Source: an uncultured Victivallales bacterium
Lineage (GTDB): Bacteria; Verrucomicrobiota; Kiritimatiellia; UBA8416; CAYSRM01
DNA length: 64,000 bases
Assembly: GCA_964475205.1 (NCBI GenBank)
Contig: CAYYVQ010000002.1
Location: forward strand, 9,965-73,964
Reading direction: 5' to 3'
In this document: piece after piece, positions 4,883-41,646 of the stretch
How positions within the stretch are numbered: the first letter of the stretch is position 1
Layout: each line of letters begins with the position of its first letter
The notes under the pieces: generated by a model
What the model was told of the DNA's origin: nothing
The model's input: the letters and a program-made list of their open reading frames with translations, nothing else
Databases searched by the model: none
Translations under genes and position numbers: made by a program

Positions 4883-6877
4883 TCAAACGGTTTCTTTCAG
4901 TTCCTTCAACTCGTCCCTTAGAACGGCGGCTCGTTCATACTCGAGAGCTTTGGCAGCCTCCAGCATTTCTTTCTCAAGATCCTGTATGACTTGATGGACA
5001 TCGTAGTCCTCGCCGGTTTCACGCACAATGTTCTCCTCGACTTTTCGAGCCTTGTCCATAGAAACGCCGGCCCAATCGCGCATTTCTTTACTGATGCCCA
5101 CAGGGGTTATGTTGTGGGCCTTATTGTATTGCTTCTGCCTGCTGCGCCGGTATTCAGTCACATCAATCATCCGCTGCATTGAGTCGGTAATCCTGTCAGC
5201 GTAAAGAATGACTTTGCCGTTAACATGCCTTGCAGCGCGCCCTGCAACCTGTATCAACGAAGTTTCCGAACGAAGAAAGCCTTCTTTGTCGGCGTCAAGT
5301 ATTGCAACCAGCGCCACCTCTGGGAGATCCAGTCCTTCTCTCAACAGGTTGATGCCGACCAGGCAATCGAATTCTTTCCTGCGCAGCCTGCCGAGGATCG
5401 CAACTCTTTCCAACGCGTCTATTTCGGAATGCAGATATTCAACCTTGAGACCAGCTTCTCGAAGATAAGCTGACAGGTCCTCGGCTGTCTTCTTGGTCAA
5501 AGTTGTAACAAGCGCTCTTTCATCCCGCAAGGCGTGGCTGCGCACCTCTTCCATGAGATCATCTATCTGTCCGCTCAAAGGTCTTACTTCAACTGGAGGA
5601 TCGATCAGCCCTGTCGGCCGGATCACCTGTTCAACAGGTTCGGGCGATACCTTCCTTTCAAAAGGACCGGGAGTAGCAGTAGTAAAGACCACTTTTCCTG
5701 TTTTCCCCAGGAATTCATCAAAATTAAGGGGACGGTTATCCATGGCGGATGGAAGCCGGAAGCCATGATCCACAAGCACGCTTTTCCGGGCCTGATCGCC
5801 GTTGTACATGGCCCTGACCTGCGGAAGCGTCACATGAGATTCGTCGATGATGGTCAGGAATTCCGAATTAAAGTAATCCAGCAACGTTGCAGGGGGTTCC
5901 CCTTCCGCCCGACCTGAAAGATGGCGAGAGTAATTTTCTATACCTGAGCAGTAGCCGATCTCCTGGAGCATTTCAACATCATACATGGTCCGCGATTTCA
6001 ACCGCTGAGCCTCAAGCAGTTTGCCTTCTCTTTCCAGCTCACGGAGTCTTACTTCCATCTCTGAGTTTATGCGCTCAACCGCCGGTTTAATCTTCGAATC
6101 CGGCATAACAAAATGCCGCGCCGGTGAAATAAGGGTTTCGTTCAGCCTGGCGACGGTTTTGCCGCTGACTGGATCGAACTGTCTTATTTCTTCCACCTCG
6201 TCCCCGAAAAAGTCTATCCGTATAGACTGTTGAGCATACGAAGGATACACATCTACAGAATCGCCCCTGACGCGGAAAGTCCCGGGTTCATGTTCGTAGT
6301 CGTTACGCGAGTACTGGATCTCGACAAGTTTTTCCAGCATTGAGTCGCGTTCCAGTTCTTCACCTTTTTTCACACGCACCAGCATTTCCTGGTAATCTTC
6401 AGGCGAACCCAGCCCGTAAATGCAGGAAACTGACGCAATGATTATCACATCGTTTCTGCATAAAAGTGAATTTGTTGCCGACAGCCGGAAGCGTTCAATC
6501 TCCTCGTTAATGGACGCGTCCTTTTCAATGAAAGTGTCTGTCTGCGGAATGTAAGCTTCGGGCTGATAATAATCGTAATAACTGATAAAATACTCGACCG
6601 CATTGTCCGGAAAAAAATACCGGAACTCTTCATAAAGCTGGGCCGCCAGCGTCTTGTTGTGGGAAATGATCAATGCGGGTCTGCCATATCCGGCAATCAC
6701 ATTGGCCATGGTAAAAGTCTTGCCCGAACCCGTGACTCCTTCAAGAATCTGGAACCTGCCCCCGCCCTGCAGGCCGGCCAGAAGCCGGGATATCGCCTTC
6801 GGCTGATCCCCCGTTGGCGAAAACGGAGCCTTCACTTCAAAACGGGCCTTCACTTCGATAACATCTTCTCCAGGCAC
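4883..6877 (-). CDS. uvrB: excinuclease ABC subunit B
   Basis: The N-terminal FSPTGDQPKAI, Walker A GVTGSGKTFT, helicase motifs and the C-terminal UvrB/UvrC interaction (UVR) domain YERAAVLRDELKELK are all present. Length is 664 aa. Confidence 0.95.
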   Translation of the reverse strand: MPGEDVIEVKARFEVKAPFSPTGDQPKAISRLLAGLQGGGRFQILEGVTGSGKTFTMANVIAGYGRPALIISHNKTLAAQLYEEFRYFFPDNAVEYFISYYDYYQPEAYIPQTDTFIEKDASINEEIERFRLSATNSLLCRNDVIIIASVSCIYGLGSPEDYQEMLVRVKKGEELERDSMLEKLVEIQYSRNDYEHEPGTFRVRGDSVDVYPSYAQQSIRIDFFGDEVEEIRQFDPVSGKTVARLNETLISPARHFVMPDSKIKPAVERINSEMEVRLRELEREGKLLEAQRLKSRTMYDVEMLQEIGYCSGIENYSRHLSGRAEGEPPATLLDYFNSEFLTIIDESHVTLPQVRAMYNGDQARKSVLVDHGFRLPSAMDNRPLNFDEFLGKTGKVVFTTATPGPFERKVSPEPVEQVIRPTGLIDPPVEVRPLSGQIDDLMEEVRSHALRDERALVTTLTKKTAEDLSAYLREAGLKVEYLHSEIDALERVAILGRLRRKEFDCLVGINLLREGLDLPEVALVAILDADKEGFLRSETSLIQVAGRAARHVNGKVILYADRITDSMQRMIDVTEYRRSRQKQYNKAHNITPVGISKEMRDWAGVSMDKARKVEENIVRETGEDYDVHQVIQDLEKEMLEAAKALEYERAAVLRDELKELKETV

Positions 6878-7872
6878 TTCCTGGCATTATGCGCAATACT
6901 GTCAGGAACACTCACACGGTGGGAATCCGGCCATTTTGTCAGGAGGTCCGCAAGTTTGTCCTCGTCTGTCAACGCCATATCCGTGCAGGTTGAATTTGCC
7001 AGAGGTCTTACATCAACCCGGCCGCCCTGTATCGAGGCCAGTCTTTCCACAAGATGGCGCTCGGTTCCGACAAAAACAGTCGAACCATCGGGAAGAGACT
7101 CAACATACCTGATAATCTGTGCAGTTGACCCAAGCTCATCAGCCTGTGACGCAACGGTGTATGGAACCTCGGGATGAACAATTATACGGGCATCCGCATA
7201 ATTCTCCCGTATAGCCCTTATGTACCTCAGGGTAAATGCGGTATGCACGTGGCAGAAGCCCCGCCAGATTATCATCGAAGCTTTTTCAACAGATTCCTGA
7301 CTAAGACCGCCGCAAGTCTCGGCGGGGTCACAGTATGCGATCCGCTCTCTCTCCAGCCCGAGCTTAACAGCAGTATTGGTTCCAAGATGTTCGTCAGGAA
7401 GAAACAGGACCCGGTTGCCCCTTTTCAGTTCACGGCTGGTTATCTCCAGGGCGTTGCTTGATGTGCACGCGCTGCCGCCCCTGGCCCCGCAAAACGATTT
7501 CACAGGCGCTGAGCTGTTCACATACACAATCGGGGTCCACTGTCCAGCGCTCTCGGTAAGAAACGACCATACTGTTTTCAATTTATCCACATCCGCCATG
7601 TCAGCCATGGGACAGCCCGCATCAGGATCGGGCATATACACAGATTGACTGCTCGTAGTAAGCACATCCGCGGATTCTGCCATAAACCTGACGCCACAGA
7701 ACACAATCCGTTCCGCGTCCCGCTGCTCAGAGGCAATCCTGGCAAGTTCAAGAGAATCCCCTACGCTGTCTGCATGTTTAAGAACAGATGAACGCTCATA
7801 ATGATGCCCCAGGATCAGAAGTTTAGAACCCCATTTCTGTTTCTGTTGCGCTATCGTATTAGTCGTATTCAC
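6850..7872 (-). CDS. nadA: quinolinate synthase A
   Basis: LLILGHHYERSSVLKHADSVGDSLELARIA and the NadA-type Cys-containing blocks are present. Length is 340 aa. Its 3' end overlaps the uvrB start by 28 bp. Confidence 0.85.
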   Translation of the reverse strand: MNTTNTIAQQKQKWGSKLLILGHHYERSSVLKHADSVGDSLELARIASEQRDAERIVFCGVRFMAESADVLTTSSQSVYMPDPDAGCPMADMADVDKLKTVWSFLTESAGQWTPIVYVNSSAPVKSFCGARGGSACTSSNALEITSRELKRGNRVLFLPDEHLGTNTAVKLGLERERIAYCDPAETCGGLSQESVEKASMIIWRGFCHVHTAFTLRYIRAIRENYADARIIVHPEVPYTVASQADELGSTAQIIRYVESLPDGSTVFVGTERHLVERLASIQGGRVDVRPLANSTCTDMALTDEDKLADLLTKWPDSHRVSVPDSIAHNARKCLEKMLSK

Positions 7873-7958
7873 TAAGTATGTATCTCCAAGCAGGCTGAAA
7901 AGTTATTCTTTACTTTTATAACTATACACGAATTTATGCAAGCGTGGCAAATCCTGAA

Positions 7959-8100
7959 CCCGCATTTCTCACGGGATTGACACTCACCCGCATATCTCAC
8001 AAAATTCTTACTGCGAGCGCGGATAGCACCCCCACAGGAGCGCTCTCCACGCTCTTCCGCCAGATGGCGGACAGGCTGCTACGAAATTCCGTGTAATACT
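7959..8100. repeat. degenerate copy of the CCCGCATATCTCA-TIR small repeat family (reverse orientation relative to the 30662-30838 copy)
   Basis: acccgcatttctca lies at 7959-7972 and cccgcatatctcacaaaattcttactgcgagcgcggatagc at 7987 onward matches the reverse complement of 30800-30838. gctacgaaattcc is shared at the far end, and the distal TIR is degraded. Confidence 0.6.
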
Positions 8101-8354
8101 TTCTGAAGCCACAGCTCAGGGGGCCCCTTATTGCTTTTTTCCATTCGGACAGCTAAATTTAATGTCGATGATAACAGACGCGCAATGCCTTCAACCGGAT
8201 TGCTTCAGCACAATAAACATAACTGCTGGAGCGATGCGAAAAAGAACAGGCAAAATCAACAGCAACATGACTTTGCTCGCTTTCAAGTTGAAAGCAATGC
8301 GCTCTTCAGGTTTCTTACAAAAATAGCAACAATAAAGATAAGGAGCACAATACG

Positions 8355-8918
8355 ATGGATATACCCCTTGAAATTTCTTTTCGCGACGTCGAAAGAACCC
8401 CGCAGATTGAACAGTTGATTCACAAAAGGGCGGCCGACCTTGAGCGCAAATGCAAAGCTCTCAAAAGCTGCCGCATAGCGGTTGAACAACCCCAGAAACA
8501 CCAGCGTACGGGAAATCCGTATAGAATAAGGCTGGATATGCATGTTCCGCCTGGCCACGAGCTGGTTGTAAAAAACAAACCCAGGCAGAAGCCGCAACAC
8601 GAAAGTCTTCACGCAGTGATTACCGATACTTTCGATTCAGCCGAACGTGTTCTTAAAAAAACTCTCGACAAGATGAGCGGCGAAACAAAGAGACATCCAG
8701 ACCAGGAAGCAACGGCTTTTGTTGACCGTGTGTTTCGTGACAAAGGTTACGGTTTTATAAGATCAATTGACGGCACGGAGCGTTACTTTCACCAGAACAG
8801 TGTTCTTAACAATGATTTTGAACGTCTCGAGCCCGGAACAGGTGTCACTTTTGTCCCTGAGGAAGGTGAAAAAGGCCCACAGGTCAGCTCAATGAAAATA
8901 GTCAATAAGCCCGGCTAA
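8355..8918 (+). CDS. hpf: ribosome hibernation promoting factor (RaiA/HPF, S30AE family) fused to a C-terminal cold-shock domain
   Basis: The N-terminal ~100 aa, MDIPLEISFRDVERTPQIEQLIHKRAADLERKCKALKSCRIAVEQ...LHAVITDTFDSAERVLKKTLDK, match the HPF/YfiA pattern. The C-terminus, DKGYGFIRSIDGTERYFHQNSV...GTGVTFVPEEGEKGPQVSSMKIV, is a CspA-like S1/OB cold-shock domain. Confidence 0.75.
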   Translation: MDIPLEISFRDVERTPQIEQLIHKRAADLERKCKALKSCRIAVEQPQKHQRTGNPYRIRLDMHVPPGHELVVKNKPRQKPQHESLHAVITDTFDSAERVLKKTLDKMSGETKRHPDQEATAFVDRVFRDKGYGFIRSIDGTERYFHQNSVLNNDFERLEPGTGVTFVPEEGEKGPQVSSMKIVNKPG

Positions 8919-8934
8919 CCCATTGTGTGTTCTT

Positions 8935-8979
8935 AGGGTCAGACCTTTACTTTATACTTTATATAGTAAAGCTGACCCT
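8935..8979 (+). terminator. long perfect hairpin downstream of hpf (putative intrinsic terminator without U-tract)
   Basis: The stem is agggtcag(ac)ctttact...agtaaagctgaccct with a 13-nt AT-rich loop, 11 bp after the stop codon. Confidence 0.45.
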
Positions 8980-9112
8980 AAAGAGCTTCAGACGCCAATG
9001 GCTTGGGGACTGTGAGATATGCGGGTCAGGATGTGCCAATGTTGAACTCAACTCGAACCATGCCTGAAACCCCGAAAATACAGGCCGGAACACACGTTCC
9101 GCTCTTCAAAAG

Positions 9113-9189
<77 letters not shown>

Positions 9190-9264
9190 TCAATGTTGAG
9201 AATTAATATACGACATGTCTTCGCCGTAATCAAGACAAAATTTACATATCGCTCAAACAGGCTC

Positions 9265-9341
9265 TGGCGTACCCGGCAGGAGTCGAACCTGCAACCTCCT
9301 GATCCGTAGTCAGGTGCTCTATCCAATTGAGCTACGGGTAC
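9265..9341 (-). tRNA. tRNA-Arg (anticodon ACG)
   Basis: The reverse complement GTACCCGTAGCTCAATTGGATAGAGCACCTGACTACGGATCAGGAGGTTGCAGGTTCGACTCCTGCCGGGTACGCCA has a 7-bp acceptor stem. The anticodon stem is CCTGA/TCAGG with loop CTACGGA, and CCA is encoded. Confidence 0.9.
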
Positions 9342-9424
9342 ACATTGAAACCGAAACAGGGCTGTAAGATACATTATCCAGCGCCGTTTTCAAGCATCTA
9401 TTATCACAGAATTTCCGCAACCCT

Positions 9425-9748
9425 TCAAGGGCGCCACAGAAAGCCCTTGTCCGCAATTTTTCCCCTGACGAAAACCACTCCTTCAGATTGAAGCATTTTC
9501 TTCTTATCCATCAGAGCTTTGCCTTTAATCCGCCCTCTGAATCCGCCAAGACTCAGGTCTGAGGCTATTACACGGTGACACGGAACCTGCGGCGAAAAAG
9601 GGTTTTCTTTCAAAGCCTGGCCAACGGCCCGCGCAGAACCACAGCCGACAATGGAGCCAATCCGGGTGTATGTGGCCACTTTCCCCCTTGGAACCAGCTT
9701 TACTGCTTCATAAACGCGCGTTTGAAACTCCGTCATCTTGCTTTCCAT
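9425..9748 (-). CDS. MGMT-family methylated-DNA--protein-cysteine methyltransferase (DNA-binding/active-site domain only)
   Basis: YEAVKLVPRGKVATYTRIGSIVG...PCHRVI contains the PCHR active-site motif. Length is ~104-108 aa from the internal Met. The ORF-track start at 9820 would overlap mscS more deeply. Confidence 0.7.
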   Translation of the reverse strand: MESKMTEFQTRVYEAVKLVPRGKVATYTRIGSIVGCGSARAVGQALKENPFSPQVPCHRVIASDLSLGGFRGRIKGKALMDKKKMLQSEGVVFVRGKIADKGFLWRP

Positions 9749-10631
9749 GGGCTTCGTCCTCTGCAATCGAATAGAACCGCGTGGTCGGGTATGCCAGCGA
9801 TATGTCGTTGTGCTTCGCAAAAGCAGACAGAACCGCTTCCCACACGCTCTGTTCAGAGCCCCGGCGTTCCCGCGGTTTCACTATATATCGCATAGTCAGC
9901 AGAACTCCGCTTTCTTTAACCGTGGTATATACTATTGGCGTCAGGTGCTCAAAGTAGATCAGGTACCTCATTGCCGCGCGTCTTATCTGCTTCTGCGCCC
10001 CCTTGGAGAGGTGTCCGGCTTTCTCGTTTACAATATCGACCAGAATCTGCTTAGCTTTCTCCCAGTTGCTTTCAAAGGTTATCAGCACAGGAATCTCATG
10101 CCATATGTATTCAAAACCGGTCTCGTAGTTGCATATCGGCTCACGCAAAACTTTGCTGTTGGGGACGTGAACAATGCGTCCGGTGCTCTGGTCGCTCGCA
10201 ACCCAGTTTCCGATTTCTATCACGCTGAACTGCAGCATCCGCGTGTCAATAACATCCCCGGTAACCGTGCCGATCTGGATCCGGTCGCCAACCTTGAAGG
10301 GACGCCGCCACATGATGAAACCCCATCCCGCCAGATTGGCAATTGTATCATGCATCGCCACCGCGAGACCGGCGCTGACAAGTCCCAGGAATTGTGCTAT
10401 CGAACCGAAACCCTTGATCCATATTCTGCCCACAAGAAGCACAGCAACAATTGCATAAAAATATCCTATTACACGGCGCAGATGGTATAACCTGGCAGAA
10501 TCGTCAACACGTTTCTTTACAATAGACATTGTCACTACTCGAAGCGCCCAGAAGACAACAATGATCAACGCTGTTATAACAAGCTTAATTGTCACCGGCT
10601 CGCTTAAGTATTCTGCAATTGCCCGGTTCAT
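9708..10631 (-). CDS. mscS: small-conductance mechanosensitive channel (MscS family)
   Basis: N-terminal TM helices are followed by the conserved MscS beta-domain, FKVGDRIQIGTVTGDVIDTRMLQFSVIEIGNW...VHVPNSKV. Confidence 0.8.
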   Translation of the reverse strand: MNRAIAEYLSEPVTIKLVITALIIVVFWALRVVTMSIVKKRVDDSARLYHLRRVIGYFYAIVAVLLVGRIWIKGFGSIAQFLGLVSAGLAVAMHDTIANLAGWGFIMWRRPFKVGDRIQIGTVTGDVIDTRMLQFSVIEIGNWVASDQSTGRIVHVPNSKVLREPICNYETGFEYIWHEIPVLITFESNWEKAKQILVDIVNEKAGHLSKGAQKQIRRAAMRYLIYFEHLTPIVYTTVKESGVLLTMRYIVKPRERRGSEQSVWEAVLSAFAKHNDISLAYPTTRFYSIAEDEAHGKQDDGVSNARL

Positions 10632-30450: not shown

Positions 30451-30661
30451 TCCAGGCTTCCCCTGCCCCGATCCGTTAAAACGTATGAATTTCATCCACC
30501 GCCTCCCTTTGAGAAAACCTTATCGCAATCCCGCAGAAGTGTCACAACAGGCTGCGCGCAAATCATTAATCTGCGTCTAATACATCTATACTTATAACAT
30601 CCCGCAGAATAATAGACAACTAAAAACTGTTCAATCCCCGAACCCTTATCCCGATCTTCAT

Positions 30662-30838
30662 CCCGCATATCTCATGGAATTTCGTAGCGAGAGCGTGGAG
30701 TGTGCTTCTGCGGGGGTGCAAATTGGTAATACTCCGGAGCAGCCGTTGTAGACATACTGCAATCTGAGGTTTTGCCAATTCGTGCCCTCGCAGTGGCGCT
30801 CTCCGCACTCGCAGCAGGAATTTTGTGAGATATGCGGG
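30662..30838. mobile_element. 177-bp MITE-like element with 13-bp perfect terminal inverted repeats (CCCGCATATCTCA family)
   Basis: cccgcatatctca at 30662-30674 is matched by tgagatatgcggg at 30826-30838. Related copies or fragments lie at 7959-8100, 9011-9025 and 33210-33222. Confidence 0.65.
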
Positions 30839-30874
30839 TTAAAAAACGGCGCCATACGCACTCTTTTTTTGCCG

Positions 30875-33179: not shown

Positions 33180-33375
33180 TGGCAAATTTCATGGATACCC
33201 CTTAAACTGACCCGCATTTCTCACTTTCAGTTCCTGCAACACGGAAATAACTCTGGCTTTTCGGTGGTTAATACCTTATTATAATAACCAGAAAGGAACG
33301 GCAGCATCGGGCAGTAAAATCGCTGTGCAGGGCACGGTTAAAACAGGAACGAAAATTGCTGTGTTATAAAGTCAA

Positions 33376-36300
33376 ATGAAAACAGTTAATGACAAATTGA
33401 CCCTGGCAAAAGCAAGTCTGGTCGCGCTAAGCTTCGTGCTGTACGCATCTTTGCCCTTAGCCGCACAGGCAGACATGTATCAGGATTTCGACCAATGGGA
33501 GACACCGCAGTCATTTGGGAATTATGAGAAAAACGGCTGGCAACTGAATGATGGCGCAGCTTACGTTGCCGAAGGCAACACAAACGGACTCCTTAACGAT
33601 ACCGGCGCCAATCTTCGCTCTCCCTACTCATCAAACGGCATCGGGCGGGTAACCTGGAAAACAAGGCTTTGGAGCAGCGGTTCCGTAACCTACGAGCTGC
33701 AGGCTTCCGCATCGCCCGACTTTACCAACCCGATACCCTTAGCTACATATACCTGCGACACGTCAAGCGCATGGCAGTATTTCACAAACGATCTGGCCCT
33801 TTACGACGGCTTGTATCTTCGCTGGAATAAAAACAGCTCCAGTCCATGGCTGAAATTCGACGATGTGCATGTGAGATTGCCCCCGTCCTATGTCAACATT
33901 ACAAACGTACAGACACATCCCGTTTCTCCGATTGTGGGAACAAACACTTTTATATCAGCTACGGTGGAACAGCAGGCAGGCGCAAGCAATATAACCGCAT
34001 CGCTGTTTTACCGCACTGACGCGGCATCCTCTTTTACGGAAATTTCAATGTCCTCCAACGGGGTTGATTCCTATATTACCGATACCGGGATACTAACGAC
34101 AACACCGAATCTGACAGTGGAATATTACATTAAAACAGATTTCGACGGTCGCTATACATCGTCAACACAATATTATCCCGCAGGCGGTTCATCAGATCCG
34201 TCTTCATTCGTGGTGAGAGCTTTATCGCCCTATACAAATATATCTGTCAAGGGCGCAGACGAAACCAATATGCACCTTGTGGACAATAATCAGTGGAAGG
34301 GCGTCCTGACTACCAACGGCCTTCTTTCCGACCCCGTGTTCTATTTTGAGAGCGGATCCGGCACATGGGGCGATGACAACCAGTCGGTATCCAATCTGCC
34401 CGTATATGGAACCGCACAGTCAGGCAGTTCCAATATTACTGTCGAAGGCACAGTCACAAGCCATCTTGCCTTCGCCTTTGATGACAACAGCCAGGATTAC
34501 AGCATCCAGCAATGCGAATATATTGATTTCGACAACTGGACCGTTGGAACCACAGGGAACTACGGCACATATACCAACAGTGAAGGCTGGGTTCTTGACG
34601 CAGGGCGCATAAACAAGAATTCCGACAACGAGTGGGACCGGGCGCTGCGCGGCCGCTATGCTATATTGAAACACGGATATACCAACCAGTTCGACAGGGA
34701 AATCCAGTACCTGCGCTCTCCCTATATGGATGATGGTGTTGGAACTATCTCGTTCTGGTACAGAAACTGGGAAAAAGACGGATCGCCTGAGGCCGGATAC
34801 CTGGTACAGAAATCAGCCACCGGCGCCGGCGATTGGATAACAGTCAGCGATTCATACAATACCAACATTACTTCTGCAGGATACCTCTGGACACAGATTG
34901 GAATCGCTGATCGCAACGCACATTATGTGCGCATAGTGAACACAAATGAAAGCAACGATTCCTGGCTATGCCTGGATGAGGTCGCAGTTTCTCATCCCGG
35001 CGCTACAGTCGGGCTTACCGACCCGTGGCGCAGCGCGGCATCTCCGCTCCTTGGCGAATCTGTAGATGTGTCAATTACAACGACCAATGTCGGGGGGGGC
35101 GCCACCAACCTGGAATGTTATGTCTGGTTTCGGCATGAAGATTCATCTGCTTTTTCTCAGATTACACTGAGCCGGAGCAACAGTGTCTTTTATGCGACTA
35201 TACCTGCAACTCCGGAAGGCGAAGTTGAGTACTACTTCGAGTGCACATACGAAGGATTCAATGCCGCAACAATATTCTATCCCGAAGGCGGCGCCGACGC
35301 CCCTTCCCTGCTGACATATACCAATCAGCAGTCGCACGGAAACACGCGTTATGAAGATTTCGAATCATGGAGCACACCGGACGTTTTCGACGACTACACC
35401 AATGCCGCAGGCTGGGTGATTCATCAAGGCGCAGTATACGACAACAGGGGACTGATAGGAGACTCGTCTGAAAGTGCGTCTCTGACAAGCCCTGAACTGA
35501 GCAATGGGGTAAGCTCAATATATTTTGACCTCGCCAATTGGCAATCTGGAGAAAATATTGCAGAAATTCAGACTTCTACCAACGGCACTACATTCCAGCC
35601 CATTGCCACAATAACGAACACTGAGGTACATGGCGCCAGAGAGTACTATCAGATTCAAGTGGATGACAACAAGGTCACCCACATACGAGTGCTCAAGACC
35701 GACGACAAAGGGTCGCATCTGTACATAGACAACGTCGTCATATCTTATCCTCCTGCCGACGTCGATATTACGGATCAGTTTTACGCCCCTGGTTATCCCA
35801 TGACTAATGACGAGGTTACAGTCTCATGCGTTATCACTTCAAGCAACGCCAGGCAGTCGGCGTATAATCTTGACCCGGAAATGCATTACAGGAGTGAGGA
35901 CTCGCAATGGACCAGCGTCGGGATGAATCACTCCGGGAGCAATGTATACACCGCCGTGATACCGGCAAATACACCCGGCACAATACAGTATTATATCGAA
36001 TGCGGCTTCGACGGTTATTATTATGGGCCGGAAAACCAGAGCCCGGCATTTCTGCCGGATGCTCCCGCGGCCAGCGAGCGGCCTGACACATTTTTCTCAT
36101 ATGATGTCAGGCATCACCACTCCGATTACTCGCACCTTAGCATAACCGGGTCTGTTGAAACCGCGTCAATGACTCTTATAGGCAACGATTACTGGCAGGG
36201 AGTTGTGGCTATAGACCAACCGACAAACGAAATACAGCTTGCTCTCAACGGCCATAACAAATGGCTGGGCAGCTCTTATTCTTCAGAAACCGACACATGG

Positions 36301-39300
36301 GGGGCAACAAACCAGATACGATACGAACCCCCCATCCAGACCGAGGCTAATCAGGCAGGCGATAGTATACTGGTAAGAGACAATTTCACCGGCACAAATC
36401 AGGTGGTTGTCCGGTACGACCTTGCAACGGGGACATACCTGATATTCAGGGCGGCATACCAGGATTTTAATGAATGGAACCTTGCGTCAACCGAGTATTT
36501 TGACCAGAGCCTGAGCGAAAGCACAATATCAAGCACGACCAACACCTTCGACCACTGGCCCGTAGACAGCGTCGATCCGGATCCGGAAAAGCCCGACACC
36601 ATGATTGAAGATATGGAAAGCTGGACAGTCGGCGCTTACTATGACGATTCCGGGCGCAGCGACATGAGCGCAAACGGCTGGTATTGCCAGGCTGCTGAAA
36701 TCATCGGAGATCCTTACGGTGGCGAGGATAAGGCTTTAAGGTTTGATCCGACCGATGAGCACATTTACACCCAGGGCAAAATATGGCCGCACCGGGCTAC
36801 CCTTACGAAAGGGCTTGATACATTCCAGTTCAAGTACTACTGGTCCCTCTCGAAGGACAATAACCCCGCCTATTACAACCTTGGCTCAAACCTGGACAAT
36901 TACCAAATCACTGCAAGCATCACAGGTCCCGAAACTTCGCCAAGGCCGTCCTACTCAGCTCTTGCCCGCTATCAGGACACGGATAATTACTACGAATTCA
37001 GGCTCAGGAGCAGAGACACCGACAATAGTGACACGATCCTTGAGCTGTACCGCCACAACAATGGAGCAGCAGAGCGCCTTGACGCAACGGCTGACAACAA
37101 CAACAACTTAAGAAACCGGACTCAGAACATTAAATTTTCGGTTTGCACCAACAACGGCGGACGCGCCTACATACGTTTTGAGTCAAACGGAGAAGCAAAA
37201 CTATTCCATGACACGGATACATCGTCAGTTTTGGCTTCTCCCGGTTCATTCGGATTCCTGTGCAACGGCGCGGATATACGTATAGACAACATAGAAGTGC
37301 GCCATCAGCATCGTCAGCATTTTGACAACTGGCTTGACGATCCAACAGGTTGGGTCGTTACCAATGGTTATGTGCATAGCAATTATGACGACTGTCGTCT
37401 TCCGGGCAACAACGACGCAAGACTTACAACCCCGTACCTTGGCTATGATGTTGGAACGCTCTCTTTCTATTACAAAAAATATAACAACGACGGAGCGTGC
37501 GAGGTATACGTATATGGGTCCAACAACGCCTCAGACTGGACTGTCATCACAAACTGGAGCACAACCTCCAGCGGCTCTTACAAAACACTTACCGACGGGC
37601 TTACAGGGTATAATTACTTTCAGATTAGAAACGAAACTACAAATTCGGCCGGTCTTGAGATTGATAACGTGGTTATTACCGAGGATGATGACTTCTACAC
37701 TAATCCCTTCGACACCGCCGCTTCAACATCTGACTGGACGGATGTGACAGGCGATATATGGTACTACGATTCGACCAACCAGACCTACAACCGCCCAGGC
37801 GAAGTGGGGCCGCCAATTGATTTTGTCGTGCAGAAAGGGTATACCAACGAAAGTTTTACCTACGCGCCCACAAGCTGGATAGACGTAGCCACAATAACCG
37901 CTACGAATATGAAGTACCAGACAGCAAACGTTGAATTTGAATACTGGGACGAGCTGTTTGTTCGAATCAAGCATGACGACGGCCAGGCAAGCCTGGTCCT
38001 GGACGATCTGAAACTGACAAAGTGGCGCGGAACTGATTCCTATACCGATACCAATAACTGGAAGGCAACCGGTATATGGGTTTCCGAGCATTCCCCGGAA
38101 GACAGATGCATCGAGCTTTGGAGATCAAAGATCAGCCCGGACAAGCCTCAATATGTGCGCTCCCCCCTCATGGAAGGCATAGGTTCTGTCACATTCCTGC
38201 AAAAGGTGGCCAACGGACCGGCCGAGTTCCAGATTGAAATTGCTTCTGAAGACGCTCCTGACACCTTTGTGCCCCAGGCGACGGTAACCGTGACAAATGA
38301 GGACTGGCAGACCTATACGTACATGATACAGACTAACGATAATTTCTATGCAAGAATCCGCCACACAACCACCAACCGTAATACTGTCCTTTACATAGAC
38401 GACATGGAAATTTCAGACTACGCCGAACGAGACAGCAGGACGTGGGAAGCATATAACGCTCTGATAACTCCAAACGAAGACTCGCGTGAATTCGAGCCGT
38501 ACTCGGGTTACAGAACAGCTTACCTTAACAACAACCCGACAAACGGAACGGCTTCCGGTGACAACTTCGATCGCGACAGGCCGTATATCCAGTCGCCGCG
38601 AATGCCAAACGGAATAGGCGAGATATCATTCTGGTACAGAAACTGGGAGACAGACGGTCTCCCGGCGGGAACATTCCACATAATGTCATCGCCAACCGAC
38701 GGCGGCACATTTGACGAATGGACGCAGATCACGACGGTTTCAAACCTCACGAATACGGATTACCGTTATTTCTCAACAAACCATTACAATGCCGACCACC
38801 GCTACGTGCGCGTATACAGTGAAACCAATTCGGGCTGCTCCCGGCTGGCCATTGATAACCTGCTTATCGGCCACCCCCTGGCTGCCGACTTCAGCGTGAC
38901 CAACCTCACGACTATTCCTGAAGTGCCCCTGTATTCATCATCTGTAGATTTGTCTGTAGATCTCTACAACTTCATCCTCCAACCTCAGAACATCCAGGTA
39001 AGGGCATACTATAACATCGGATCCAACAACTGGGCTCAGTGGGAGAACTGGAACACCAACAACTATATAGACCTTGACCTCACATCTTCCAGCCCTGCAC
39101 AGCGCACTTATCAGTCCTCAGGTGCATCGATTCCTCAGCTCCCAGTCAATACAGTGGTACAATACTACCTGGAATTCACTTTCGACGGACCTAATTCAGA
39201 CAAAACAAGTCCGAAAACCTATGCTGCGTTCTCAAACCCGGATTATTATGATCCCATCGATCTCAACGACGGCCACTCAGTCACAAACCCCTACTACTTC

Positions 39301-41646
39301 GTCCTCGGATCGAAGCCGGGAGAGGTATGGCTGAATGAGGTTAACTATGCCAACAATGGTTTTGAAACTACCAACGAATATATTGAGATCGTCGGCAGGG
39401 AGGGAATAGATGTTGACGACTGGGAAGTCGAGCTGGTTACTACTGCAGATATAACTTATGACAGCGCCGTACTCACAAACGGATCTCCTTTTGCCAACAC
39501 AACAAATGGCTTTGGCTTTATTGTCTATGGCGATCCCGGGGTCAACAATGTCGACCTGGTTTTCGAAACGCCTTCAAATCAGAATATTGAGAAAAACAGC
39601 GGCGCAAGACTCGTTAGAGGCATGGGGGCCCATGCAGATAAAATATGCTGGGGCGACCCTGATACTCTGGATACATTGACATCAAATGGCTACCGATATA
39701 TAGGAGAGAAGACTACTATTTACGCCTTCTCTCCGCTATATGCAACGGGAACCGGCATAGAAAAGTCTGATTTTACAGACTGGGACTTCAATACATCCAG
39801 CGGCTCATGGTACTCGCCGGGTAACGAAAACGAATCACAAACTATGATCGCCTATCAATCAACTCAGACTCTTACAGTGGCATCGGCTTTAGGCACGCCT
39901 TCCCCTGCGACAGGAACCAACGCTTATCCGAGGGGAACTACGTTGACCTGCGCCATGACCGACTCGCCCATAAACATCGGCGTCCTTTCCACCCAGTACC
40001 TGTGCACAGGATGGAGCGGCAGCGGCGATATCCCGACTTCAGGCTCCACCACCAACACCGGAGAGATAATGCTGCTTAGTGACTCGTCCATCACCTGGCA
40101 GTGGGTCACCAACGTCTACCTCGACGTGCAGACAAACGGGAACGGCTCGGTCGATAACACGGGCTGGTTCCAGCAGCATTCGGCCGTGACAGTAACGGCT
40201 ACGGCAGCCGAATATAACGCGTTCACCGGATGGACCGGAGACACCAACGGATGCAACATCTCGTCAAATGTCCTTACAATCGATCAGCTCTCGGAACCCC
40301 GGGGTCCGATTACCGCTAATTTCGAGTCCACTGACCGCACTCTCGACGTGACTTCAACCTATGCCGCGACCAACATCGCGCCACCCCCCGGATCACATGT
40401 CTACCATGACAATGATCCCCTTTCTTGCGTGGTGAGTAACCGTGCGATCTACAAGGGATCAATGGCGACACAGTACCTGGTTACCGGCTGGAGCCCCACC
40501 GGAAGTGTGCCTGAGATGCCAGCTATCGGAACAGAGACAAACTTTGTATGGGAATGCGATGCGGGAGTTGAAACATGGAACGGGAATGATGGCGATGACT
40601 GGGTTACAATCCTGGTTGCCGATGGGGACGAAAAAGGGCTTGGGAACTTCACTCGCGACAGTTTCGCCACCAACGGAATATCTGTTGGCGACGATCGAAT
40701 ACTTGACAATACAACAGTTATGGACTTTGGCGGCAATCTTTACTGGGATGCGTCTGTAGATATTCCGACCGGGCTGAGAGTATACACAGTGGTCTTCAAC
40801 AGCGCTGACATATCTACAGCCACCCATTATATCATCCCTACCAATGCGAACACGTTCTTTACTATTGACGGCAATGATTACGACTGCGGTACGGCCCTTG
40901 CAGGCGAATGGACGCCTCTTGTTGCTCCTGAGACAAACAATACCGCCATAAGCACAGGGCCATTCAATATAACATCGGATTCCAGCATAGACTGGCTCTG
41001 GCAGACAAATCATTACCTGGACATTTCAGTGAGCGGCAGCGGCATCGTAGATGTGGCAAGCGCCTGGTTCAAGTCAACCAGCAACGTAACAATAACAGCC
41101 TATCCTGAGTCAGGCTATACGCTTGATTCCTGGACGGGCAACACAAACGGATGCGTAATAAACAATCTGCAGATTGAAGCGCCAATGACTCTTGCCAGGA
41201 ACATCACGGCCTCTTTTGTTCCGGAATCAAATGACAGAACAGATCAAGGAACGCCGTATTCGTGGCTCGATGATTACTACACGTCCAACTACGATTACTG
41301 GGACACTAACGATTCGGACCTTGACGGAATGGCCGCGTGGATGGAATACGTAACCGGAACCGACCCTACAAATGAACAATCAACATTCCAAATACTGGAA
41401 ATAGGCTACGGCGACGGATCAAACTTTTTAAAGTGGTACGCAACCACCAACAGCGGCGTTTACACACCGTTTGGAATCTACAGGACAACCAATATACTTG
41501 AAGGATGGGGTTCGCCATACATCACAAACGTGGGTCCGCGCGATCCCGACGGGACCGGCACAAACACATGGTGGGATACAAATCCTCCGCCGGCCGATGT
41601 CCCGGTATACTATCGCCCGTACGTCATTTGGACCAACAGCCCATAA
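33376..41646 (+). CDS. giant secreted multi-repeat surface protein (2756 aa) with a lamin-tail-like domain, InlB-B-repeat-like modules and a C-terminal D-x-D-x-D-G / GTDP module
   Basis: The signal peptide is MKTVNDKLTLAKASLVALSFVLYASLPLAAQA. At least six modules carry [LI]xSPxxxxG[IV]G.[IV]SF[WY]Y[RK]NW. VWLNEVNYANNGFETTNEYIEIVGREGIDVDDWEVEL is LTD-like. Three YL[CV]TGWS....I.W modules follow. The C-terminus is GTPYSWLDDYYTSNYDYWDTNDSDLDGMAAWMEYVTGTDPTNEQSTF. Confidence 0.8.
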   Translation: MKTVNDKLTLAKASLVALSFVLYASLPLAAQADMYQDFDQWETPQSFGNYEKNGWQLNDGAAYVAEGNTNGLLNDTGANLRSPYSSNGIGRVTWKTRLWSSGSVTYELQASASPDFTNPIPLATYTCDTSSAWQYFTNDLALYDGLYLRWNKNSSSPWLKFDDVHVRLPPSYVNITNVQTHPVSPIVGTNTFISATVEQQAGASNITASLFYRTDAASSFTEISMSSNGVDSYITDTGILTTTPNLTVEYYIKTDFDGRYTSSTQYYPAGGSSDPSSFVVRALSPYTNISVKGADETNMHLVDNNQWKGVLTTNGLLSDPVFYFESGSGTWGDDNQSVSNLPVYGTAQSGSSNITVEGTVTSHLAFAFDDNSQDYSIQQCEYIDFDNWTVGTTGNYGTYTNSEGWVLDAGRINKNSDNEWDRALRGRYAILKHGYTNQFDREIQYLRSPYMDDGVGTISFWYRNWEKDGSPEAGYLVQKSATGAGDWITVSDSYNTNITSAGYLWTQIGIADRNAHYVRIVNTNESNDSWLCLDEVAVSHPGATVGLTDPWRSAASPLLGESVDVSITTTNVGGGATNLECYVWFRHEDSSAFSQITLSRSNSVFYATIPATPEGEVEYYFECTYEGFNAATIFYPEGGADAPSLLTYTNQQSHGNTRYEDFESWSTPDVFDDYTNAAGWVIHQGAVYDNRGLIGDSSESASLTSPELSNGVSSIYFDLANWQSGENIAEIQTSTNGTTFQPIATITNTEVHGAREYYQIQVDDNKVTHIRVLKTDDKGSHLYIDNVVISYPPADVDITDQFYAPGYPMTNDEVTVSCVITSSNARQSAYNLDPEMHYRSEDSQWTSVGMNHSGSNVYTAVIPANTPGTIQYYIECGFDGYYYGPENQSPAFLPDAPAASERPDTFFSYDVRHHHSDYSHLSITGSVETASMTLIGNDYWQGVVAIDQPTNEIQLALNGHNKWLGSSYSSETDTWGATNQIRYEPPIQTEANQAGDSILVRDNFTGTNQVVVRYDLATGTYLIFRAAYQDFNEWNLASTEYFDQSLSESTISSTTNTFDHWPVDSVDPDPEKPDTMIEDMESWTVGAYYDDSGRSDMSANGWYCQAAEIIGDPYGGEDKALRFDPTDEHIYTQGKIWPHRATLTKGLDTFQFKYYWSLSKDNNPAYYNLGSNLDNYQITASITGPETSPRPSYSALARYQDTDNYYEFRLRSRDTDNSDTILELYRHNNGAAERLDATADNNNNLRNRTQNIKFSVCTNNGGRAYIRFESNGEAKLFHDTDTSSVLASPGSFGFLCNGADIRIDNIEVRHQHRQHFDNWLDDPTGWVVTNGYVHSNYDDCRLPGNNDARLTTPYLGYDVGTLSFYYKKYNNDGACEVYVYGSNNASDWTVITNWSTTSSGSYKTLTDGLTGYNYFQIRNETTNSAGLEIDNVVITEDDDFYTNPFDTAASTSDWTDVTGDIWYYDSTNQTYNRPGEVGPPIDFVVQKGYTNESFTYAPTSWIDVATITATNMKYQTANVEFEYWDELFVRIKHDDGQASLVLDDLKLTKWRGTDSYTDTNNWKATGIWVSEHSPEDRCIELWRSKISPDKPQYVRSPLMEGIGSVTFLQKVANGPAEFQIEIASEDAPDTFVPQATVTVTNEDWQTYTYMIQTNDNFYARIRHTTTNRNTVLYIDDMEISDYAERDSRTWEAYNALITPNEDSREFEPYSGYRTAYLNNNPTNGTASGDNFDRDRPYIQSPRMPNGIGEISFWYRNWETDGLPAGTFHIMSSPTDGGTFDEWTQITTVSNLTNTDYRYFSTNHYNADHRYVRVYSETNSGCSRLAIDNLLIGHPLAADFSVTNLTTIPEVPLYSSSVDLSVDLYNFILQPQNIQVRAYYNIGSNNWAQWENWNTNNYIDLDLTSSSPAQRTYQSSGASIPQLPVNTVVQYYLEFTFDGPNSDKTSPKTYAAFSNPDYYDPIDLNDGHSVTNPYYFVLGSKPGEVWLNEVNYANNGFETTNEYIEIVGREGIDVDDWEVELVTTADITYDSAVLTNGSPFANTTNGFGFIVYGDPGVNNVDLVFETPSNQNIEKNSGARLVRGMGAHADKICWGDPDTLDTLTSNGYRYIGEKTTIYAFSPLYATGTGIEKSDFTDWDFNTSSGSWYSPGNENESQTMIAYQSTQTLTVASALGTPSPATGTNAYPRGTTLTCAMTDSPINIGVLSTQYLCTGWSGSGDIPTSGSTTNTGEIMLLSDSSITWQWVTNVYLDVQTNGNGSVDNTGWFQQHSAVTVTATAAEYNAFTGWTGDTNGCNISSNVLTIDQLSEPRGPITANFESTDRTLDVTSTYAATNIAPPPGSHVYHDNDPLSCVVSNRAIYKGSMATQYLVTGWSPTGSVPEMPAIGTETNFVWECDAGVETWNGNDGDDWVTILVADGDEKGLGNFTRDSFATNGISVGDDRILDNTTVMDFGGNLYWDASVDIPTGLRVYTVVFNSADISTATHYIIPTNANTFFTIDGNDYDCGTALAGEWTPLVAPETNNTAISTGPFNITSDSSIDWLWQTNHYLDISVSGSGIVDVASAWFKSTSNVTITAYPESGYTLDSWTGNTNGCVINNLQIEAPMTLARNITASFVPESNDRTDQGTPYSWLDDYYTSNYDYWDTNDSDLDGMAAWMEYVTGTDPTNEQSTFQILEIGYGDGSNFLKWYATTNSGVYTPFGIYRTTNILEGWGSPYITNVGPRDPDGTGTNTWWDTNPPPADVPVYYRPYVIWTNSP

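What the first reader, a model, noticed from the sequence alone, without database searches (positions are those of the whole stretch)
8355..8918. Hibernation-promoting factor fused to a cold-shock domain
A single 187-aa ORF joins a short HPF/RaiA (S30AE) domain to a CspA-like OB-fold (GYGFIRSIDGTERYFH...KGPQVSSMKI). Long HPFs normally carry a different C-terminal dimerisation domain. A CSD fusion would couple ribosome hibernation to RNA-chaperone or cold-response function. It is followed by a strong 45-nt hairpin.
Basis: seen in the sequence. Interest (0 to 1): 0.5.

Follow-up and report, generated by a model that had tools for sequence, protein, structure and literature searches.

The report
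HPFcold-type ribosome hibernation factor gene
This gene really does encode a ribosome-silencing (hibernation) domain fused to a cold-shock domain. The fusion is a widespread family, named HPFcold and solved on the Coxiella ribosome in 2025-26, so this is an ordinary new member, not a new kind of protein.

Summary
Window 8355-8918 (+) is one uninterrupted 187-aa ORF. It scores above Pfam's curated cut-offs for Ribosomal_S30AE (residues 6-107) and CSD (residues 123-176). A strong stem-loop follows at 8929-8986.

The fusion is not an assembly artefact. A separately assembled public contig (possibly from the same reads) is 100% identical. Every listed homologue carries both domains, and at least 589 species-representative genomes encode a relative.

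The protein matches PDB 9T0Z/9TZE over its full length (36% identity, E = 3e-30). That entry is Coxiella burnetii CBU_0020, "HPFcold". In that cryo-EM structure the S30AE domain plugs the 30S decoding centre. The cold-shock domain sits in the mRNA exit channel and clamps the anti-Shine-Dalgarno 3' end of 16S rRNA, giving protected 70S monomers.

Three of the four named rRNA-contact residues are kept here (R125, F134, Y144). The family-specific loop insertion and an RLEPG variant of the KLEVG motif are also present. The long-HPF dimerisation domain is absent.

The host is an uncultured PVC-superphylum bacterium, probably close to Kiritimatiellia or Lentisphaerae.

Verdict: new member of a known kind, low interest.

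The parts
8340..8345 (+). Shine-Dalgarno sequence AAGGAG, 9 nt upstream of the ATG
   Evidence: Read directly from the sequence.
8355..8918 (+). Complete CDS, 187 codons plus TAA stop, of an HPFcold-type hibernation factor
   Evidence: ORF list. Both Pfam domains score above their gathering cut-offs. Full-length match to PDB 9t0z_9 / 9tze, E = 3.3e-30, 36% identity. A 100% identical protein (P0001) is in NCBI and Logan.
8370..8675 (+). N-terminal S30AE (HPF/RaiA/YfiA) domain, residues 6-107. It includes the family-specific beta2-beta3 loop insertion (residues 45-56, QPQKHQRTGNPY).
   Evidence: PF02482, 40.9 bits. AF2 secondary structure: E6-10, H16-32, E38-44, E57-64, E68-74, H85-109. Foldseek hits to RaiA 8rd8_D, HPF 2rql/6h4n and YfiA 4y4o/4v8i. 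Gapless alignment to CBU_0020 through the loop.
8676..8708 (+). Inter-domain linker, residues 108-118. Low model confidence at 111-116.
   Evidence: AF2 pLDDT below 50 at residues 111-116. The linker is variable in the family alignment A1 apart from K112 and H114.
8709..8906 (+). C-terminal cold-shock domain (five-strand OB barrel), residues 119-184. RNP1-like KGYGFI at 130-135 and RNP2-like YFH at 144-146. RLEPG motif at 157-161.
   Evidence: PF00313 on residues 123-176, 37.4 bits. AF2 strands 119-127, 132-136, 142-146, 163-170 and 175-184. Foldseek hits to Csp structures at rmsd about 1.7 A. G133, F134, F145 and H146 are invariant, and Y132 and Y144 are kept in 31 of 32 sequences.
8929..8986 (+). 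Strong stem-loop 11 nt after the stop codon (core 8933-8981). Probably a U-tract-less terminator or a 3'-end stabiliser of the monocistronic mRNA.
   Evidence: MFE -28.1 kcal/mol, z = -5.4. Not flagged as a canonical terminator. It is unique in the window and absent in the 82% relative, where another gene follows. In 15 of 83 family loci the 90 nt after the stop fold with z < -3, and several of those have T-runs.

Best explanation
The gene encodes an HPFcold-class ribosome hibernation factor.

Mechanism, inferred by homology to the cryo-EM structure of Coxiella burnetii CBU_0020: when translation shuts down, the N-terminal S30AE domain binds the 30S subunit at the decoding centre. There it overlaps the A-site (and mRNA path), so tRNA and mRNA cannot bind. 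The short linker lets the C-terminal cold-shock domain reach the mRNA exit channel of the same ribosome. Its RNP1/RNP2 aromatic face (here F134 and Y144, plus R125) stacks on and hydrogen-bonds the single-stranded anti-Shine-Dalgarno 3' tail of 16S rRNA.

This blocks initiation and shields the exposed 16S 3' end from exoribonucleases. The ribosome is stored as an inactive 70S monomer. No 100S dimer is expected, because the dimerisation domain of long HPF is absent.

Shown here: the ORF, both domains, the fold, full-length homology to the solved protein, conservation of most contact residues, and the breadth of the family. Inferred: ribosome binding, anti-SD clamping, RNase protection and stationary-phase use in this organism.

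The gene looks monocistronic. It is divergent from nadA/uvrB and convergent with tRNA-Met and tRNA-Arg. It has its own strong SD and a 3' stem-loop.
For: - Both Pfam domains score above their curated cut-offs.
- The only strong PDB sequence match is 9t0z_9/9tze, 'Ribosome hibernation promoting factor'. It covers residues 1-178, E = 3.3e-30, 36% identity and 57% positives.
- The N domain alone finds only that chain in the PDB (E = 3.9e-14) and no canonical HPF, so it belongs to the HPFcold clade.
- PMC13392368 describes CBU_0020 as PF02482 + PF00313 with a six-residue linker. It is bound at the 30S decoding centre, with the CSD on the anti-SD sequence, pincered by bS21 and contacted by uS7.
- The named contacts are Y142, F132, R123 and R177. 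They map to Y144, F134, R125 and S179 here. F134 is invariant, Y144 is kept in 31 of 32 sequences, and position 125 is R or K in 28 of 32.
- The beta2-beta3 loop insertion that separates CBU_0020 from short HPF is present and aligns without gaps.
- The KLEVG motif of the Coxiella and Legionella CSDs appears as RLEPG at 157-161. The family consensus is [DE]RLExG.
- No long-HPF dimerisation domain is detected.
- The family is large. There are 292 word-index hits, and all 120 listed have both domains. At least 589 species genomes encode a relative. At the 50% identity cluster level, 93 clusters match at E <= 1e-30 and 1105 at E <= 1e-10.
- Chan et al. independently list HPF-Csp chimeras as hibernation-factor isoforms.
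- cbu0020 is induced 10.5-fold on entry into the stationary small-cell variant.
Against: - All functional steps are transferred from one homologue at only 36% identity. Nothing was measured for this protein or organism.
- One of the four named rRNA contacts (R177, the phosphate bridge) is Ser179 here and Ser/Thr across most of the family. The binding geometry may therefore differ in detail.
- The 16S rRNA 3' end of this genome is not in the window, so the target sequence could not be checked.
- A crude count finds SD-like motifs upstream of only about 26% of long ORFs, against 10% background. The importance of SD/anti-SD pairing in this lineage is therefore unclear.
- The 3' hairpin lacks a U-tract, so its role as a terminator is a guess.
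Confidence: 0.88

Rival explanations
1. The cold-shock domain works mainly as a ribosome-tethered RNA chaperone or cold-response module. It would bind mRNA, or melt structure at low temperature, and the gene would be cold-induced. It would not clamp the 16S 3' end.
For: The CSD keeps the canonical RNP1/RNP2 nucleic-acid-binding residues. It also resembles CspA/CspE-type chaperones: NCBIfam CspE 31.6 bits and CspA 29.8 bits, and Foldseek rmsd about 1.7 A to Csp structures. Off the ribosome, such a surface could bind any single-stranded RNA.
Against: The solved homologue shows the CSD on the anti-SD sequence of the same ribosome, and surface conservation clusters on that interface. The NCBIfam Csp scores are far below the equivalog cut-offs (31.6 against 120). 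No cspA thermoregulator or other cis-RNA lies upstream. The Coxiella gene responds to stationary phase.
Confidence: 0.07
2. The fusion is an artefact. Two adjacent genes (a short hpf and a csp) would have been joined by a sequencing or assembly error that removed a stop codon or shifted the frame near 8650-8720.
For: None found. The linker region is the least conserved and lowest-confidence part of the model.
Against: A separately assembled contig (possibly from the same reads) is 100% identical over the whole gene. Relatives at 82%, 64% and down to about 33% identity, from hundreds of genomes and many phyla, have the same single-ORF architecture and similar length. The homologous fusion protein has been seen as one chain in cryo-EM density.
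Confidence: 0.01
3. It is a canonical long-HPF-like factor that still dimerises ribosomes into 100S particles, with the CSD acting as a substitute dimerisation module.
For: Chan et al. frame the chimeras as replacements for a lost long-HPF C-terminal domain. OB folds can dimerise, and CspD does (from general knowledge).
Against: The Coxiella structures are 30S and 70S monomers, with the CSD buried in the mRNA exit channel between bS21, uS7 and 16S rRNA. The authors describe 70S hibernation. No PF16321-like domain is present.
Confidence: 0.04

Closest known systems
HPFcold: Coxiella burnetii CBU_0020 (PDB 9T0Z, 9TZE; Stuart et al., Nat Commun 2026, PMC13392368) and its Legionella pneumophila orthologue Q5ZW81
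   Same: Same two-domain order (PF02482 then PF00313) and similar length (187 against 183 aa), with a short linker. It shares the beta2-beta3 loop insertion, conserved R/F/Y anti-SD contact residues and a [KR]LExG motif. It has no dimerisation domain. The alignment is full-length, E = 3e-30.
   Different: Only 36% identical. R177 of CBU_0020 is Ser179 here. There are six extra residues in the beta4-alpha2 loop (KPRQKPQ). RNP2 is YFH here against YFN in Coxiella. The host is an uncultured PVC-superphylum bacterium, not a gammaproteobacterial pathogen. Nothing is known about its expression.
HPF-Csp chimeric isoforms in the pan-genome survey of Chan et al. (bioRxiv 10.1101/2025.11.04.686544)
   Same: An S30AE domain fused to a Csp-derived domain in place of the long-HPF C-terminal domain. 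The phylogenetic distribution is scattered and the gene sits outside the conserved hpf operon. Here the gene lies between nadA/uvrB and tRNA genes, not near rpoN.
   Different: That survey reports that chimeras always coexist with a canonical HPF and often lie next to Balon. No second HPF was found in this 64-kb window. Balon was not searched for, and the rest of the genome could not be examined.
Long HPF (HPFlong; e.g. S. aureus, L. lactis, B. subtilis YvyD)
   Same: Homologous N-terminal S30AE domain that occupies the decoding centre, and a two-domain layout of about 190 aa.
   Different: Long HPF carries the Ribosom_S30AE_C dimerisation domain and makes 100S dimers. That domain is absent here and is replaced by an OB-fold CSD.
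Short HPF / RaiA (YfiA) and RMF of Escherichia coli
   Same: The N domain has the RaiA/HPF fold (TM-score on target 0.81-0.86). Like RaiA, the predicted outcome is an inactive 70S monomer. Like RMF, the second module targets the anti-SD region at the mRNA exit (RMF role per Polikanov et al. 2012, as cited in PMC13392368).
   Different: It scores below the TIGR00741 (16.3 against 40.9 bits) and RaiA (13.3 against 158 bits) cut-offs. The anti-SD-binding function sits in the same polypeptide, not in a separate small protein.
Stand-alone cold-shock proteins (CspA/CspB/CspE)
   Same: Five-strand OB barrel with RNP1 (K-G-[FY]-G-F-I) and RNP2 aromatic residues.
   Different: It is not a free 70-aa protein. 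It scores far below the Csp equivalog cut-offs, carries the family-specific RLExG motif, and its predicted ligand is the 16S rRNA 3' tail.

Membership tests
HPFcold (PF02482-PF00313 hibernation factors) | N-terminal S30AE / sigma-54-modulation (HPF) domain | tested here: met
   PF02482 on residues 6-107, 40.9 bits against cut-off 23.7. The fold matches RaiA/HPF/YfiA.
HPFcold (PF02482-PF00313 hibernation factors) | C-terminal cold-shock domain in the same polypeptide, joined by a short linker | tested here: met
   PF00313 on residues 123-176, 37.4 bits against cut-off 27. It is a single ORF and a separately assembled contig is identical. The AF2 linker spans about residues 108-118.
HPFcold (PF02482-PF00313 hibernation factors) | Full-length sequence homology to the structurally characterised member CBU_0020 | tested here: met
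   phmmer E = 3.3e-30 over residues 1-178. BLASTP gives 36% identity, E = 2e-37.
HPFcold (PF02482-PF00313 hibernation factors) | Loop insertion between strands beta2 and beta3 of the N domain, absent from short HPF CBU_0745 | tested here: met
   A 12-residue loop (45-56) lies between E38-44 and E57-64 in the model. It aligns without gaps to CBU_0020 ELPKRHQHQGKLY. The Pfam match spans 102 residues over 86 profile positions. No direct alignment to a short HPF was made.
HPFcold (PF02482-PF00313 hibernation factors) | Anti-SD contact residues R123, F132 and Y142 of CBU_0020 | tested here: met
   They map to R125, F134 and Y144. In the 32-sequence alignment, position 125 is R or K in 28, F134 is kept in all 32 and Y144 in 31.
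HPFcold (PF02482-PF00313 hibernation factors) | R177 phosphate bridge of CBU_0020 | tested here: not met
   The aligned residue is Ser179, and the position is Thr/Ser in 31 of 32 family members. This looks like a Coxiella-specific contact, not a family-defining one.
HPFcold (PF02482-PF00313 hibernation factors) | KLEVG-type motif in the CSD, absent from free Csps | tested here: met
   RLEPG at 157-161. The family consensus is [DE]RLExGTGV.
HPFcold (PF02482-PF00313 hibernation factors) | Binds the 30S decoding centre and the 16S 3' end, and stores ribosomes as 70S monomers | not testable with these tools
   Known only from the cryo-EM of the Coxiella protein.
Long HPF (HPFlong) | C-terminal Ribosom_S30AE_C dimerisation domain | tested here: not met
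   No such Pfam hit even at E <= 1. The C-terminal half is an OB barrel.
Short HPF / RaiA (TIGR00741, PRK10324) | Score above the NCBIfam equivalog cut-off, in a single-domain protein of about 95-113 aa | tested here: not met
   TIGR00741 scores 16.3 bits against 40.9. RaiA scores 13.3 against 158. The protein is 187 aa with a second domain.
Stand-alone CspA-family cold-shock proteins | Single-domain protein of about 70 aa that scores above the Csp equivalog or subfamily cut-offs | tested here: not met
   The best score is CspE, 31.6 bits against 120. The CSD is the C-terminal third of a larger protein.

The most novel reading that the evidence does not exclude
The most novel reading not excluded concerns the wider HPFcold family, including this PVC member, where the R177 phosphate bridge is replaced by Ser/Thr. 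In these proteins the cold-shock domain might engage the ribosome or RNA differently from the Coxiella protein. It might, for example, capture mRNA 5' leaders or act off the ribosome. The gene might also travel as a small cassette: it is bracketed by a 19-nt inverted pair of a dispersed repeat at 7983-8001 and 9011-9029.
Probability: 0.06. Interest if true: 0.5.

Novelty: new member of a known kind. Interest (0 to 1): 0.2.

Why it matters
The finding adds one more uncultured PVC-lineage example to a hibernation-factor class that is already named, surveyed and structurally solved. Its value is for annotation. Genes like this are variously named 'cold shock CspA family protein', 'HPF/RaiA family ribosome-associated protein', 'RaiA' or 'factor Y', and they should be read as HPFcold. 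The survey made here also shows that the class is far more widespread than Proteobacteria and Cyanobacteria. It reaches at least 589 species genomes, including Desulfobacterota, Ignavibacteria, Planctomycetota, Lentisphaeria, Fibrobacteres, Spirochaetes and Chloroflexi. One published rRNA contact (R177) is not conserved across it. None of this changes current understanding.

Tried and rejected
- **Second hibernation factor or Csp in the window.** HMMs of the N and C domains were run against all 597 six-frame ORFs of at least 50 aa. Only the gene itself was found.
- **Regulatory RNA upstream or downstream.** Rfam at E <= 1 on 7000-10000, and at gathering thresholds on the whole window, found only the two tRNAs. 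No cspA thermoregulator was found.
- **Conserved 5' or 3' flanks.** Alignment with the 82%-identical relative (L082/L083) shows no conserved leader or hairpin. The only shared piece is a copy of a dispersed repeat.
- **Promoter.** The only sigma-70-like site on the + strand (7977-8005) lies inside that repeat, 350 nt upstream. It is not trusted.
- **Cassette or mobile-element idea.** The bracketing 19-nt inverted repeat belongs to a motif found six times in the window. The downstream copy is absent from the relative. Rejected as a probable coincidence.
- **Compositional anomaly.** GC is about 46% over the gene and its intergenic flanks, against 50-54% nearby. This is too weak to argue for transfer.
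- **Conserved operon partners.** A phosphoribosyltransferase lies directly upstream in 23 of 83 loci, with DUF2267-like, PRC-barrel-like and RRM proteins in fewer. None is present next to the window's gene.
- **SD usage as a proxy for the anti-SD target.** The count was crude and inconclusive.
- **AFDB fold search.** The library was unavailable.
- **Source genome.** The genome-collection scan did not return it. The best hit was 59% identical. Taxonomy was therefore inferred from UvrB relatives, 70-73% identical to Kiritimatiellae, Lentisphaerae and Verrucomicrobiota MAGs.

Full report
**1. The observation**

An AAGGAG Shine-Dalgarno lies at 8340-8345, 9 nt before the ATG.

A Pfam scan gives two non-overlapping domains above the curated cut-offs:
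- Ribosomal_S30AE (PF02482), residues 6-107, 40.9 bits against 23.7.
- CSD (PF00313), residues 123-176, 37.4 bits against 27.

No long-HPF C-terminal domain is detected even at E <= 1. NCBIfam models for free Csps, short HPF and RaiA hit only far below their cut-offs.

An AlphaFold2 model was built on a 32-sequence family alignment. It has mean pLDDT 83.5 and pTM 0.66. It shows a beta-alpha-beta-beta-beta-alpha domain, a poorly defined linker (111-116) and a five-strand barrel (119-184). Foldseek against the PDB matches the N half to RaiA, HPF and YfiA (TM-score on target 0.81-0.86). It matches the C half to CspA, CspB and CspE (rmsd about 1.7 A).

The stem-loop after the stop codon is real. 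Its core is 8933-8981 and the extended stem is 8929-8986. Folding 8915-8995 gives -28.1 kcal/mol, z = -5.4, with no shuffle folding as well. It has no U-tract and is not a textbook terminator.

**2. Not an artefact**

A public contig assembled separately from run SRR11308339 is 100% identical over 1105 bp covering the whole gene, though it may derive from the same reads. The word-index protein search returned 292 relatives. All 120 listed carry both Pfam domains in one protein of about 185-210 aa.

These include Desulfobacterales, Syntrophobacteria, Ignavibacteria, Calditrichaceae, Pirellulales, Phycisphaerae, Sedimentisphaerales, Lentisphaeria, Fibrobacter, Spirochaetes, many Nostocales, Chloroflexi, Kuenenia and Thiohalocapsa.

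An exhaustive HMMER scan of 1.84 billion cluster representatives (50% identity) found 93 at E <= 1e-30 and 1105 at E <= 1e-10. Most of the 150 best hits listed are full-length matches.

**3. What it is**

The only strong sequence match among solved structures is chain 9 of PDB 9T0Z/9TZE, 'Ribosome hibernation promoting factor'. It aligns over residues 1-178 with E = 3.3e-30 and 36% identity. The N domain alone finds only this chain (E = 3.9e-14) and no canonical HPF.

That entry is Coxiella burnetii CBU_0020, named HPFcold by Stuart et al. (bioRxiv 10.1101/2025.11.08.686982; Nat Commun 2026, PMC13392368). They describe it as follows:
- It binds in the 30S tRNA cleft and decoding centre.
- The CSD sits in the mRNA exit channel, wrapped by the anti-Shine-Dalgarno sequence of 16S rRNA. 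It is pincered by bS21 and contacted by uS7.
- The authors propose 70S (monomer) hibernation with protection of the 16S 3' end from RNases.

Their supplement names the contacts. U1534 stacks on Y142. C1535 stacks on F132 and pairs with R123. R177 bridges phosphates.

Mapping through the phmmer alignment gives R125, F134, Y144 and S179 in the window protein. In the family alignment F134 is invariant and Y144 is kept in 31 of 32 sequences. Position 125 is R or K in 28 of 32. Position 179 is Thr or Ser in 31 of 32. Three contacts are therefore family-wide, and the fourth looks specific to Coxiella.

Two further family marks are present. The first is the beta2-beta3 loop insertion that separates CBU_0020 from the short HPF CBU_0745. 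Here it is residues 45-56, aligned without gaps. The second is the KLEVG motif of the Coxiella and Legionella CSDs, which appears here as RLEPG at 157-161.

A separate pan-genome study (Chan et al., bioRxiv 10.1101/2025.11.04.686544) also lists HPF fused to Csp as a non-canonical hibernation-factor isoform. It describes these isoforms as spread by horizontal transfer, located outside the hpf operon and coexisting with a canonical HPF. cbu0020 is induced 10.5-fold as Coxiella enters its stationary small-cell form (PMC4766238).

**4. Likely mechanism here**

By homology, the S30AE domain blocks the decoding centre and the tethered CSD clamps the 16S 3' tail through F134, Y144 and R125. This silences the ribosome and protects it as a 70S monomer.

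The sequence, the fold and the conservation are shown here. Ribosome binding, RNase protection and the conditions of expression are inferred.

The 16S gene is not in the window, so the target sequence could not be read. The gene's own AAGGAG shows that at least some genes in this organism use SD pairing. A crude window-wide count was inconclusive.

**5. Context**

UvrB (4883-6877, -) is 70-73% identical to proteins of Kiritimatiellae, Lentisphaerae and Verrucomicrobiota MAGs. The window therefore comes from an uncultured PVC-superphylum bacterium.

The neighbours are housekeeping genes:
- Upstream and divergent: nadA and uvrB.
- Downstream and convergent: tRNA-Met(CAT) at 9113-9189 and tRNA-Arg(ACG) at 9265-9341.
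- Further downstream: an Ogt-like DNA-binding protein, an MscS-like channel and an M48/TPR peptidase.

The gene appears monocistronic. The 82%-identical relative (L082) keeps uvrB upstream and the same tRNAs downstream. It lacks nadA at this position and has three extra genes between hpf and the tRNAs: 23S_rRNA_IVP, a nucleotidyltransferase and a HEPN protein. Leader and trailer DNA are not conserved.

No second S30AE or CSD gene lies in the 64 kb. In 23 of 83 loci from other genomes a phosphoribosyltransferase sits directly upstream, but not here.

**6. Rivals**

- The RNA-chaperone or cold-response reading has no positive support beyond the generic Csp fold.
- The two-genes artefact is excluded.
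- A 100S-dimer role is unlikely, given the monomeric Coxiella particles and the buried position of the CSD.

**7. Verdict**

It would have been a notable find before late 2025. It is now a named, solved and surveyed class. This gene is a new, uncharacterised member at 36% identity to the reference protein, in a lineage not named among those the paper highlights. Interest is low. The only small additions are the breadth of the family and the non-conservation of the R177 contact.

Noticed in passing
window 7959-7973, 7987-8001, 9011-9025, 30662-30676, 30824-30838, 33211-33225; full copy 30661-30839; decayed copy 7986-8093: A dispersed intergenic repeat with the terminal motif CCCGCATATCTCACA. 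It has 6 hits at up to 2 mismatches, against 0.08 expected. One complete MITE/REP-like copy of 179 bp has terminal inverted repeats. The same element occurs twice in the related contig L082, at 2137-2323 and 5814-5865.
   Followed up: partly
window 7983-8001 and 9011-9029: The HPFcold gene is bracketed by a 19-nt inverted pair of that repeat motif, 95% complementary and 1009 nt apart. The downstream copy is missing in the 82% relative, so this is probably a coincidence and not a cassette.
   Followed up: partly
window 8191-8268 (-): A 25-codon hydrophobic ORF (MLLLILPVLFRIAPAVMFIVLKQSG) lies in the 482-bp nadA-hpf intergenic region. It has no support beyond the open frame. The relative L082 has a different called 34-aa ORF in the equivalent spacer.
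   Followed up: no
L082 6707-7825, compared with window 8919-9112: In the closest relative, three genes are inserted between hpf and the tRNA-Met/tRNA-Arg pair: 23S_rRNA_IVP four-helix protein, an NTP_transf_2 nucleotidyltransferase and a HEPN protein. The last two form a likely toxin-antitoxin pair. The window has only the hairpin and a repeat copy at this position.
   Followed up: no
loci L003, L018, L025-L030, L038, L044, L047, L055, L060-L063, L068, L070, L071, L079, L085 and others: In 23 of 83 HPFcold loci a PF00156-type phosphoribosyltransferase lies next to the gene, in most directly upstream on the same strand. DUF2267-like proteins occur in 10 loci, and PRC-barrel-like and RRM-type RNA-binding proteins in 7 each. 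This may be a dormancy or stress gene neighbourhood.
   Followed up: partly
window 33376-41646 (+): A very long ORF of 2756 aa appeared in the ORF list. It was not examined.
   Followed up: no
window 9086-9101 (-): A canonical terminator-like hairpin with a T-run lies immediately after tRNA-Met on the minus strand. The tRNA operon therefore has its own terminator, and the big 8929-8986 stem-loop probably serves the hpf transcript.
   Followed up: no
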